Below, one piece after another: positions 23,844-24,267 of a stretch of 64,000 nucleotides of DNA. The stretch lies in assembly GCA_050014255.1 (NCBI GenBank), contig JBEKDR010000033.1, positions 2,064-66,063 on the forward strand, given 5' to 3'. This DNA is from Bacteroidales bacterium (GTDB lineage Bacteria > Bacteroidota > Bacteroidia > Bacteroidales > VadinHA17). The stretch's first letter is position 1. Every line of letters begins with the position of its first letter. Both the position numbers and the translations under genes were made by a program. Below the pieces are notes generated by a model that did no database searches, was not told the origin of the DNA, and worked only from the letters and a program-made list of their open reading frames with translations.

Positions 23844-23874
23844 TTTGGTAATTGCTCTTAAAATGTTAAATTTG
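23844..23874 (+). promoter_or_regulatory. Bacteroidetes-type promoter (TTTG-N19-TAAATTTG) upstream of the tRNA-like repeat array
   Basis: TTTG at 23844-23847, a 19-nt spacer, and TAAATTTG at 23867-23874 match the TTTG / TAnnTTTG consensus. It ends 14 nt before repeat unit 1. Confidence 0.5.
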
Positions 23875-23888
23875 CACCTCAATTAAAC

Positions 23889-24152
23889 TGCGGGGTGGTC
23901 CGCCGGCTGGCGGACGTTGGGCTCATATCCGCCGGGTGGCGGACGGTGGTTCGGAAATGTTCTTTTGAAAATATATTGCGGGGTGGTCCGCCGGCTGGCG
24001 GACGTTGGGCTCATATCCGCCGGCTGGCGGACGGAGGTTCAGAAAAGTTCTTTTGAAAATATATTGCGGGGTGGTCCGCCGGCTGGCGGACGTTGGGCTC
24101 ATATCCGCCGGCTGGCGGACGGTGGTTCGGAAATGTTCTTTTGAAAATATAT
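23889..24152 (+). repeat. Three tandem 88-bp tRNA-Met-like pseudo-units, each carrying two CCGCC-NNNN-GGCGG palindromes
   Basis: Units at 23889, 23977 and 24065, with the genuine tRNA starting at 24153 in the same 88-bp register. Units share TGCGGGGTGG and GTTGGGCTCATA with the tRNA. Units 1 and 3 differ by 1 nt. Confidence 0.9.
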
Positions 24153-24224
24153 TGCGGGGTGGAGCAGTGGTAGCTCGTTGGGCTCATAACCCAAAGGTCG
24201 GAGGTTCGAATCCTCCCTCCGCTA
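24153..24224 (+). tRNA. tRNA-Met (CAU), probably the initiator
   Basis: Hand-folded cloverleaf. Acceptor TGCGGGG/CTCCGCT has a 1:72 mismatch; D stem GAGC/GCTC; anticodon arm TTGGG-CTCATAA-CCCAA has three G:C pairs next to the loop; T arm GGAGG-TTCGAAT-CCTCC. No CCA is encoded. Confidence 0.85.
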
Positions 24225-24230
24225 CAAAGA

Positions 24231-24267
24231 AAAGCCATGGCGCTTAGCGCCACGGCTTTTTTGTTTT
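24231..24267 (+). terminator. Rho-independent terminator after tRNA-Met
   Basis: GCCATGGCGC-TTA-GCGCCACGGC (9 of 10 bp paired) followed by TTTTTTGTTTT. Confidence 0.75.

What the first reader, a model, noticed from the sequence alone, without database searches (positions are those of the whole stretch)
23844..24267. Three tandem 88-bp tRNA-Met-like pseudo-units form the probable leader of an initiator-type tRNA-Met gene
Units at 23889-23976, 23977-24064 and 24065-24152 lie in exact 88-bp register with the genuine tRNA at 24153. Each unit begins with the tRNA 5' sequence TGCGGGGTGG. Each also keeps the anticodon-arm 5' strand and loop GTTGGGCTCATA (CAU intact) and part of the T arm GG(T/A)GGTTC(G/A)GAA. 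The D arm, however, is replaced by a perfect hairpin GTCCGCC-GGCT-GGCGGAC. A second TCCGCC-GG(C/G)T-GGCGGA hairpin replaces the 3' anticodon stem and variable region, and the 3' acceptor strand is missing, so no unit can form a cloverleaf. Units 1 and 3 differ by 1 nt and unit 2 by 3 nt. A consensus Bacteroidetes promoter (TTTG-N19-TAAATTTG) ends 14 nt before unit 1, and the only clear terminator follows the real tRNA. The array is therefore probably transcribed as a ~270-nt hairpin-rich 5' leader. Possible roles include a processing or regulatory leader, a decoy for tRNA-binding proteins or anticodon nucleases, and protein-binding sites. It could also be a decaying tandem duplication colonised by REP-like palindromes.
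Basis: seen in the sequence. Interest (0 to 1): 0.6.

Follow-up and report, generated by a model that had tools for sequence, protein, structure and literature searches.

The report
Hairpin-bearing pseudo-tRNA array, nuclease-cassette relic
Three tandem dead copies of the initiator tRNA sit in front of the real gene; they belong to a widespread Bacteroidota family of hairpin-disrupted tRNA fragments that travels with a small GIY-YIG nuclease gene and that I could not find described in the literature.

Summary
Three 88-bp units (23889-24152) precede a genuine initiator tRNA-Met (24153-24224), behind one Bacteroidetes-type promoter. None of the units is a tRNA.

The array is not a private oddity of this genome. 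A metagenome scan found about 20 unrelated Bacteroidota loci with the same plan: tRNA positions 1-37, a covarying 6-bp hairpin replacing positions 38-47, the 5' half of the T arm, an AT-rich spacer, then the real tRNA. A covariance model built without the window scores its units at 53-57 bits.

The same hairpin-bearing fragment is the constant right-hand junction of a small cassette: tRNA(CAU), terminator, an 80-91 aa GIY-YIG-only ORF, then tRNA positions ~20-37, the hairpin, positions 48-76 and a terminator. In the tRNA-to-ORF direction, 9 of 14 unit loci carry the ORF against 0 of 10 controls. In the ORF-to-tRNA direction, 5 of 5 protein-found lineages sit at such a junction.

A sister species with the same promoter, leader and an identical tRNA has no units. 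The window holds no GIY-YIG gene.

Best reading: an orphan, horizontally acquired by-product of a homing-type GIY-YIG cassette, passively transcribed as the 5' leader. An RNA or DNA function for the hairpin is not excluded.

The parts
23844..23874 (+). Bacteroidetes-type promoter motif TTTG-N19-TAAATTTG; the only one upstream of the array and tRNA
   Evidence: Pattern search. It is orthologous to the promoter of sister locus L269, where it drives the tRNA directly.
23875..23888 (+). Local (ancestral) leader CACCTCAATTAAAC; in the sister species it abuts the genuine tRNA
   Evidence: It scores 16 (of a possible 22, leader length) against the L269 leader, whereas the spacer scores 8 (of a possible 24).
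23889..23976 (+). Pseudo-unit 1. It holds tRNA nt 1-10, a palindrome at the D-arm position (23899-23914), nt 26-37 including CAU, the hairpin replacing positions 38-47 (23928-23943), C48 plus the T-arm 5' half, and a 20-nt spacer.
   Evidence: The core 23915-23955 scores 53.0 bits against family model R1.
23977..24064 (+). Pseudo-unit 2 (palindromes 23987-24002 and 24016-24031)
   Evidence: The core 24003-24043 scores 56.8 bits against R1.
24065..24152 (+). Pseudo-unit 3 (palindromes 24075-24090 and 24104-24119). Its spacer ATGTTCTTTTGAAAATATAT now serves as the leader of the real tRNA.
   Evidence: The core 24091-24131 scores 56.9 bits against R1. The spacer resembles the inter-unit spacers and leaders of other lineages.
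24153..24224 (+). Genuine initiator-type tRNA-Met(CAU); 100% identical to the sister species' tRNA
   Evidence: ARAGORN; Rfam RF00005 at 66.8 bits; alignment A3.
24238..24261 (+). Intrinsic-terminator-like hairpin plus T-run ending the tRNA transcription unit

Best explanation
**What it is (shown).** The array is three copies of a hairpin-substituted initiator-tRNA pseudogene module. The module recurs in many Bacteroidota. It is the signature of a small selfish cassette built around a stand-alone GIY-YIG (UPF0213-like) nuclease gene inserted at tRNA(CAU) genes. The canonical cassette reads: tRNA, terminator, GIY-YIG ORF, tRNA positions ~20-37, T plus a 6-bp hairpin in place of positions 38-47, positions 48-76, terminator.

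**Proposed mechanism (inferred).**
1. The nuclease breaks tRNA(CAU) genes in or near positions 33-48. This is the stretch shared by the two target tRNAs and destroyed by the hairpin.
2. Repair copies the cassette, using the tRNA's own conserved sequence as portable homology arms.
3. Dispensable extra copies of the target are converted to the hairpin form.
4. Break-induced recombination amplifies segments in tandem.

Upstream units consist of a leader, positions 1-37, the hairpin and positions 48-~60. They lack the acceptor 3' strand and a terminator, so transcription still reaches the real tRNA. They are derivatives that can be co-converted into a new genome with or without the ORF.

**In this window.** The array is such an orphan. 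It was inserted between the ancestral leader and the tRNA, it brought a foreign-type leader, and no nuclease gene remains nearby. It is transcribed passively as a ~280-nt 5' leader (264-nt array plus the short local leader) and presumably removed when RNase P matures the tRNA. It encodes no tRNA.
For: **Family membership.**
- A metagenome scan for tRNA 1-37 followed by a non-A at position 38 returned about 22 Bacteroidota-like loci with the same plan.
- Every one of these loci with enough sequence has a genuine tRNA-Met right after the units.
- Model R1, built from 26 modules of other loci, scores the window units at 53-57 bits. Genuine tRNAs score 29-37 bits.

**Hairpin.**
- There are 24 distinct sequences at the same position.
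- 99.4% of cells are paired, 5 of 6 pairs show double changes, and 0 of 500 shuffles reach this.
- The hairpin is essentially absent from more than 100 kb of flanking DNA.

**Link to GIY-YIG.**
- An 80-91 aa PF01541-only ORF starts just after the tRNA terminator in 9 of 14 distinct unit-bearing loci. It is found in 0 of 10 Bacteroidota control loci.
- In the reverse direction, all 5 Bacteroidota-type homologue lineages found by protein alone sit behind a tRNA(CAU) and are followed by the hairpin copy.
- One of these lineages sits at a different CAU tRNA that shares positions 33-48, TCATAACCCGRAGGTC.
- L262 carries exactly the window's hairpin, TCCGCCGGCTGGCGGA.
- Tandem and decayed ORF copies occur (L140, L255, L262, L148, L253).
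- The catalytic motifs are conserved.

**Gain at this locus.**
- Sister locus L269 has the same gene order and a neighbour protein 81% identical. Its promoter and leader abut an identical tRNA, with no units.
- The window's inter-unit spacer resembles the spacers and leaders of other lineages, not the local leader.

**Precedent.** The GIY-YIG homing endonuclease SegB drives tandem amplification of a tRNA-plus-segB segment through tRNA/ORF microhomology (PMC13096335).
Against: - The window (64 kb) holds no GIY-YIG gene or recognisable remnant, and no downstream hairpin copy.
- 5 of 14 unit-bearing loci lack the ORF.
- The 5 protein-found cassette lineages lack upstream units, so the path from cassette to upstream unit is not shown.
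- The presumed target (positions 33-48) is intact in the genuine tRNA, so self-immunity is unexplained.
- UPF0213-type proteins have no demonstrated homing activity and no DNA-binding domain.
- The second, identical palindrome replacing the D arm is not explained by the model. Neither are the hairpins in D and T loops of other loci.
- Strong covariation of the hairpin points to selection on a folded RNA or single-stranded DNA. That would mean the module does something.
- The units' T-arm fragment matches the local tRNA type (GGAGG). The donor must therefore have been a fairly close relative, or gene conversion has acted.
Confidence: 0.55

Rival explanations
1. Functional RNA. The units are transcribed and act as RNA. 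They could be a decoy or antitoxin-like partner for the GIY-YIG protein or another factor that binds the initiator tRNA. Alternatively, they could be a processing or stability element of the tRNA precursor. The architecture resembles type III toxin-antitoxin loci: promoter, tandem structured repeats, terminator, small nuclease ORF.
For: - The arrays always lie between the promoter and the tRNA, with no internal promoter or terminator.
- The hairpin covaries strongly.
- The anticodon loop, including CAU, is invariant in the modules.
- In the window, the two identical palindromes can pair into a 16-17 bp stem presenting CGUUGGGCUCAUA as the loop.
- In many loci the ORF begins right after the tRNA terminator.
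Against: - The units are absent from the sister species at the orthologous locus.
- The 5 protein-found cassette lineages have no upstream units; there the hairpin copy lies after the ORF.
- The window has no GIY-YIG gene.
- The long inter-palindrome stem is not possible in most family members.
- Invariance of the tRNA-derived parts can be explained by gene conversion from the real tRNA.
- GIY-YIG enzymes are DNA nucleases as far as is known (own knowledge).
Confidence: 0.2
2. DNA-level sites. The palindromes, as duplex or extruded hairpins, are recognition, cleavage or immunity sites for the nuclease or another protein. The array would be a cluster of such sites protecting or marking the tRNA gene.
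For: - The hairpin sits exactly where the two target tRNAs share sequence (positions 33-48) and replaces positions 38-47.
- Several hairpins are perfect 16-bp palindromes including the loop.
- There are six copies within 264 bp in the window.
Against: - The stem sequence varies freely with compensation. That argues against a sequence-specific duplex operator.
- No binding protein is identified.
- No nuclease gene lies in the window.
Confidence: 0.12
3. A purely local event. The tRNA gene was tandemly duplicated in this lineage, the copies are decaying, and generic REP-like palindromes inserted into them.
For: - The units are 96-99% alike, which suggests recent amplification.
- One lone copy of a similar palindrome lies elsewhere in the window at 61846.
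- The T-arm fragment matches the local tRNA type.
Against: - The same design, with the hairpin at the same tRNA position, recurs in about 25 unrelated loci.
- The palindrome is not dispersed in flanking DNA.
- The spacers do not contain the local leader.
- None of the 120 ordinary initiator-tRNA loci from species-representative genomes has such a unit, and none of the 10 Bacteroidota loci among them matches model R1 as a module.
Confidence: 0.06
4. Assembly artefact: the repeat, or its copy number, is produced by mis-assembly.
For: Short-read contigs from other samples end inside the array. That is typical of repeats that assemblers cannot span.
Against: - Independent assemblies (ENA, JGI) agree base for base over up to 2.5 units.
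- The units carry distinguishing substitutions.
- Homologous arrays occur in many unrelated contigs.
Confidence: 0.02

Closest known systems
Free-standing GIY-YIG homing endonucleases next to tRNA genes (phage T4/T6 SegB)
   Same: - A GIY-YIG nuclease gene lies beside tRNA genes.
- Tandem segmental amplification of a tRNA-plus-ORF unit occurs through homology between the tRNA and the 3' end of the ORF (PMC13096335).
- Here, ORF plus tRNA-fragment repeats of about 340 bp are seen in L140, L255 and L262.
   Different: - The proteins here are 80-91 aa, catalytic domain only, and UPF0213-like (nearest PDB entry 1ZG2). They have no PHROG hit and are chromosomal in Bacteroidota.
- A covarying hairpin replaces tRNA positions 38-47 in the flanking copy.
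- Nuclease activity and target are untested.
I-Ssp6803I, the intron-encoded endonuclease specific for the anticodon region of tRNA-fMet genes in cyanobacteria
   Same: A selfish nuclease element that exploits the extreme conservation of the initiator tRNA anticodon region as a landing site.
   Different: That element is a PD-(D/E)XK enzyme inside a self-splicing group I intron, and the interrupted gene stays functional through splicing. Here there is no intron. An intact tRNA copy is kept and a dead hairpin-bearing copy is left beside it.
tRNA-targeting integrative elements (attL/attR partial tRNA duplications)
   Same: An intact tRNA is regenerated on one side of the insert and a partial tRNA copy is left on the other. 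The sister locus L269 carries such an element, with a serine recombinase overlapping the tRNA 3' half.
   Different: - The cassette has no integrase and is only about 340 bp.
- The partial copy has an internal substitution by a hairpin.
- The upstream units carry the 5' part of the tRNA, not the 3' part.
Type III toxin-antitoxin loci (ToxIN): tandem RNA repeats, terminator, nuclease gene (own knowledge)
   Same: The order is promoter, tandem structured repeats, terminator, small nuclease ORF in loci such as L140, L150 and L232.
   Different: - The repeats are tRNA-derived and include a real tRNA.
- Cassettes exist without upstream repeats.
- The window has repeats without the ORF.
- GIY-YIG is not a known RNase toxin.
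- There is no PADLOC hit.
REP/BIME-type intergenic palindromes
   Same: Short GC-rich imperfect palindromes in non-coding DNA.
   Different: They are not dispersed. They are confined to tRNA(CAU)-derived fragments at fixed tRNA positions.

Membership tests
tRNA (Rfam RF00005) | Cloverleaf with acceptor, D, anticodon and T arms; score at or above the 29-bit gathering threshold | tested here: not met
   The units give no RF00005 hit even at E<=10, while the real tRNA scores 66.8 bits. ARAGORN finds one tRNA only. The acceptor 3' strand and the anticodon-stem 3' strand are absent.
Hairpin-substituted tRNA(CAU) module (family defined here, model R1) | tRNA positions 26-37 (..GGGCTCATA), then T plus a 6-bp hairpin replacing positions 38-47, then C48 and the T-arm 5' half | tested here: met
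   R1 was built from 26 modules of other loci. The window units score 53.0, 56.8 and 56.9 bits (E about 1e-12). Genuine tRNAs score 29-37 bits.
Hairpin-substituted tRNA(CAU) module (family defined here, model R1) | Located immediately upstream of (or, after the ORF, downstream of) a genuine tRNA(CAU) gene | tested here: met
   The window units abut tRNA-Met at 24153. The same holds in all relatives with enough sequence.
Homing-endonuclease-gene cassette | A nuclease gene adjacent to the element | tested here: not met
   For this window, there is no GIY-YIG gene or remnant in 64 kb (tblastn; family HMM against the six-frame translation, best E about 1). The feature is met in 9 of 14 related loci and in 5 of 5 protein-found lineages.
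Homing-endonuclease-gene cassette | Presence/absence polymorphism at a conserved target among relatives | tested here: met
   Sister locus L269 has the same promoter, leader and tRNA but no units. 10 Bacteroidota control loci are empty. Copy number varies (1 versus 2 cassettes in L255/L257; L250 versus L262).
Homing-endonuclease-gene cassette | Site-specific cleavage of the cassette-free allele, followed by copying of the cassette through repair | not testable with these tools
   Only indirect evidence is available. Two different target tRNAs share positions 33-48, and the hairpin replaces positions 38-47.
REP-like dispersed palindromes | Many copies dispersed through intergenic regions of the genome | tested here: not met
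   Outside the array there is one lone similar palindrome in 64 kb (61846). In more than 100 kb of relatives' flanks the hairpin type occurs only in tRNA-like fragments. The whole genome was not available.
Conserved cis-regulatory leader | Conservation at orthologous loci, or a match to a curated RNA family | tested here: not met
   It is absent in the sister species. No Rfam family matches the units at E<=10.
Type III toxin-antitoxin (ToxIN-like) | Tandem RNA repeats followed by a terminator and a toxin gene, with the toxin processing and binding the repeats | tested here: not met
   No toxin or nuclease ORF follows the array and tRNA in the window. There is no PADLOC hit for the family protein. 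RNA processing cannot be tested here.

The most novel reading that the evidence does not exclude
The hairpin-substituted tRNA fragment and the stand-alone GIY-YIG gene together form a class of selfish element that the literature searched here does not describe. The element would home into initiator and other CAU tRNA genes across Bacteroidota, using the tRNA's own sequence as universal homology arms. The covarying hairpin would be a working part of it. It could be a cleavage-immune replacement of the target, a structure the nuclease recognises, or an RNA partner or decoy. Upstream pseudo-tRNA arrays such as this one would then spread by co-conversion and could themselves modulate nuclease attack or initiator-tRNA expression.
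Probability: 0.35. Interest if true: 0.8.

Novelty: new variant of a known kind. Interest (0 to 1): 0.6.

Why it matters
- **The gene at stake.** The initiator tRNA gene is among the most conserved and essential sequences in bacteria. An element that repeatedly rearranges it, leaving arrays of dead copies in its transcription unit, bears on how selfish DNA exploits invariant targets without killing the host.
- **A first testable context for these proteins.** Small UPF0213/YhbQ-type GIY-YIG proteins have no assigned role. More than 5,000 50%-identity clusters are related to this one. A fixed tRNA(CAU) target and a covarying hairpin give a concrete setting in which to test them.
- **Annotation and assembly.** These arrays break short-read assemblies, as shown by contigs that end inside them. 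They can also be mis-called as tRNAs: ARAGORN called the L140 unit a tRNA.

Tried and rejected
1. **Wasted genome scan.** My first genome-contig scan used a gap range that also fits ordinary initiator tRNAs. I reused those loci as a control set.
2. **Viral contigs.** A scan for the anticodon-hairpin junction gave 3 chance hits inside ORFs of high-GC phages. A tblastn of the ORF against phage records gave one weak hit. There is no phage link.
3. **Decayed nuclease gene or downstream copy in the window.** I searched with tblastn, a family HMM against the six-frame translation, pattern searches, and the covariance model with filters off. Nothing was found. Two collinear weak tblastn hits at 24800-24899 (E 1.6) were not confirmed by the HMM.
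4. **Synteny through the downstream GMC oxidoreductase.** The relatives (L266-L268) are not collinear and have no tRNA-fMet there.
5. **Genome-wide REP idea.** Rejected on the basis.
6. **Annotation of the ORF.** PHROGs, PADLOC and NCBIfam gave no annotation.
7. **Literature.** Five full-text searches found no description of the cassette or the arrays. This is absence within that library only.
8. **Strain variant L003.** Its four T/C-to-G differences cluster in one spacer. They look like read errors and were not interpreted.

Full report
**1.

Window 23889-24152 is an 88-bp repeat of three full units, and the repeat runs 10 nt into the real gene (TRF: 3.1 copies, 96% matches, no indels). The real gene is a tRNA-Met(CAT) at 24153-24224. 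It scores 66.8 bits against Rfam tRNA and has a mismatched 1:72 pair and the GGG/CCC anticodon stem of initiators.

Each unit reads as follows:
- tRNA nt 1-10;
- the palindrome TCCGCCGGCTGGCGGA in place of the D arm;
- tRNA nt 26-37 (CGTTGGGCTCATA);
- the same palindrome in place of positions 38-47;
- C48 plus the 5' half of the T arm;
- a 20-nt AT-rich spacer.

The palindrome occurs six times exactly, against 0.43 loose matches expected per window. No unit is recognised as a tRNA by ARAGORN, or by Rfam even at E<=10.

A Bacteroidetes-type promoter motif ends 14 nt before unit 1. The first terminator-like site follows the real tRNA.

Contigs assembled independently from other peat samples are identical over the shared part and stop inside the array. 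The repeat is therefore real, although the exact copy number rests on short reads.

The organism is an uncultured Bacteroidales bacterium (names attached to P0287 and to the closest GMC oxidoreductases).

**2. The units belong to a family**

My first genome scan used a faulty pattern and returned ordinary initiator tRNA loci. These became a control set. None of the 120 loci holds a unit.

It gave three kinds of hit:
- archaeal initiator tRNAs with introns;
- real tRNAs with an unusual base at position 38, and group I intron genes;
- about 22 AT-rich, Bacteroidota-like loci built like the window.

In the last group, one to three or more tandem units of 87-125 bp lie between a TAnnTTTG promoter box and a genuine tRNA-fMet. 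Each unit consists of tRNA positions 1-37, T plus a 6-7 bp hairpin, C48 with the T-arm 5' half, and an AT-rich spacer.

In most relatives the D arm is intact. In five loci a hairpin sits in the D loop. In L150, as in the window, the D arm is replaced by the same palindrome as the second one.

I found 24 distinct hairpins at the post-A37 position. On an alignment of 26 modules that excludes the window, 99.4% of cells pair and 5 of 6 pairs show compensatory double changes. No shuffle out of 500 reaches this, and no slid register comes close.

A covariance model from that alignment scores the window units at 53-57 bits. The real tRNA scores 33 bits, and the real tRNAs of control loci score 29-37 bits.

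The hairpin type is virtually absent from more than 100 kb of flanking DNA in these loci. It is therefore not a generic REP element.

**3. The module is tied to a GIY-YIG cassette**

In 9 of 14 distinct unit-bearing loci with enough downstream sequence, an 80-91 aa ORF starts just after the tRNA terminator. It consists of a GIY-YIG catalytic domain only:
- Pfam PF01541, E about 1e-16;
- conserved Tyr, YIG, Arg, His-Asn and Glu;
- nearest solved structure the UPF0213 protein 1ZG2.

None of 10 Bacteroidota control loci has this ORF. The one-sided Fisher p, computed by hand from these counts, is about 0.002.

Behind the ORF comes a partial tRNA copy: positions ~20-37, the hairpin, positions 48-76 and a terminator. 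In several loci the ORF's stop codon lies in the D-stem sequence.

I then ran the test in the opposite direction, starting from homologues found by protein sequence alone. All five Bacteroidota-type lineages looked up show the order tRNA(CAU), terminator, ORF, hairpin copy (L250, L251/252, L253/254, L255-257 with L263-265, L262). A more distant sixth homologue (L258) does not.

One lineage sits at a different CAU-anticodon tRNA. The two targets share TCATAACCCGRAGGTC (positions 33-48), and the hairpin replaces positions 38-47.

L262 carries exactly the window's hairpin. ORF plus fragment is often tandemly repeated (L140, L255, L262) or decayed (L148, L253).

These features are presence/absence variation, tandem amplification, degeneration and a fixed, highly conserved target. 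They are the hallmarks of a homing-type selfish gene. The nearest described behaviour is phage T6 SegB, a GIY-YIG homing endonuclease. It amplifies a tRNA-plus-segB segment in tandem through tRNA/ORF microhomology (PMC13096335).

I found no description of this cassette or of the arrays in five literature searches. The ORF has no hit in PHROGs, PADLOC or NCBIfam.

**4. What happened at this locus**

The window holds no GIY-YIG gene, no remnant and no downstream hairpin copy.

A sister species provides the ancestral state. Its neighbour protein is 81% identical and the gene order is the same (locus L269). Its promoter and leader are orthologous: TAAATTTGCCGCTCAACTAAAC against TAAATTTGCACCTCAATTAAAC in the window. 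In the sister species they abut a tRNA 100% identical to the window's, with no units.

The 264-bp array is thus a lineage-specific insertion between the ancestral leader and the tRNA body.

The spacer that now precedes the real tRNA, and units 2 and 3, is ..GTTCTTTTGAAAATATAT. This is not the local leader. It resembles the spacers and native leaders of other lineages (L143, L148, L223, L232, L250). That points to import by recombination within the tRNA gene rather than local duplication. The AT-rich composition weakens this argument.

**5. Mechanism: shown and inferred**

Shown:
- family membership of the units;
- covariation of the hairpin;
- the link to the GIY-YIG cassette in both directions;
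- absence of the array in the sister species;
- position of the array inside the tRNA transcription unit.

Inferred:
1. The nuclease breaks tRNA(CAU) genes near positions 33-48.
2. Repair from a cassette-bearing allele uses tRNA positions 1-37 and 48-76 as homology arms.
3. The hairpin copy is a target-less version of the gene.
4. Redundant target copies are converted to the hairpin form.
5. Upstream units are carried along by co-conversion. This can happen without the ORF if the right-hand end resolves inside the genuine tRNA, which would give orphan arrays such as this one.
6. Only units without an acceptor 3' strand and terminator are tolerated upstream, because transcription must reach the real tRNA.
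7. At the RNA level the array is then a ~280-nt hairpin-rich leader (264-nt array plus the short local leader), cut off when RNase P matures the tRNA.

**6. What this does not explain**

- How the intact tRNA escapes the nuclease.
- How upstream units first arise from cassettes. The five protein-found cassettes have none.
- Why further hairpins occupy D and T loops, including the second palindrome in each window unit.
- Why the hairpin stem is so well maintained.

The last point keeps two alternatives open. One is an RNA role, as a decoy, an antitoxin-like partner or a processing element. In the window the two palindromes can also pair into a long stem that displays the CAU loop. The other is a role as a DNA structure recognised by the nuclease.

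A purely local duplication colonised by REP elements, and an assembly artefact, are largely excluded.

**7. Verdict**

The array is not a conserved regulatory leader.

It is an orphan member of a widespread family of hairpin-disrupted tRNA(CAU) fragments associated with a small GIY-YIG nuclease cassette. I found no description of this family. I rate it a new variant of a known kind, namely homing-type selfish DNA at tRNA genes. Interest is moderate to high, mostly for the family rather than for this particular copy.

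Noticed in passing
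window 13966-14057 and 18675-18714: Intergenic arrays of GC-rich heptads (AAGTCGG/AAGCCGG ... CTTCGGA x3-5). The first forms a long inverted repeat. A similar heptad array lies 4.6 kb away.
   Followed up: no
window 24899-24970 and 25057-25257: Gene scraps lie in the 1 kb between the tRNA and the esterase gene. One is an NmrA/SDR-like N-terminus (MRLTIFGATGQTGKPL). The other is a 66-aa NagA_N fragment (Pfam E 3e-5). This suggests past rearrangement downstream of the tRNA.
   Followed up: partly
window 24339-24360 and 24583-24604: An exact 22-nt direct repeat, GGCTTTTTCTTTGTTAAGCACC, occurs twice, each time after a terminator-like hairpin. It resembles the tail of the tRNA's own terminator. It may be a remnant of duplicated terminator segments. 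No tRNA or GIY-YIG remnant lies between the copies.
   Followed up: partly
window 61741-61777 and 61826-61875: Nested GC-rich palindromes lie after a gene end. The inner one, TCCGCCAGTTGGCGGA (61846-61861), is the same hairpin type as in the units and is the only lone copy in the window.
   Followed up: partly
L269 909-2598: In the sister species, a large serine recombinase ORF overlaps the 3' half of tRNA-fMet on the opposite strand, with a tyrosine integrase gene beside it. This is an integrated element at the same tRNA.
   Followed up: no
L032 780-1060 (Alkalibacillus aidingensis); L092 1900-2170 (Cytobacillus solani): A roughly 146-bp insertion follows nt 15 of tRNA-fMet, with duplication of the leader and the first 15 nt of the tRNA. 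This is a different, Bacillaceae-specific way of disturbing the same gene.
   Followed up: no
L217 1467-1663: Two extra upstream units have the whole anticodon arm (positions 27-43) replaced by a short hairpin, GGCGTACGCC, while AGGTC and the T-arm 5' half are kept. This is a second style of hairpin substitution.
   Followed up: no
L250 2780-2800; L253 2800-2822; L214 285-300: The downstream hairpin copies often carry a further, unrelated GC hairpin inserted in the T loop.
   Followed up: no
P0017, P0028, P0051 (50% identity library): Some relatives of the GIY-YIG protein are 200 aa or longer with two GIY-YIG stretches. They may be tandem cassettes fused into one ORF.
   Followed up: no
L140 271-351: ARAGORN calls the hairpin-bearing unit of L140/L187 an 81-nt tRNA-Met. 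Such units can therefore be mis-annotated as tRNA genes.
   Followed up: no
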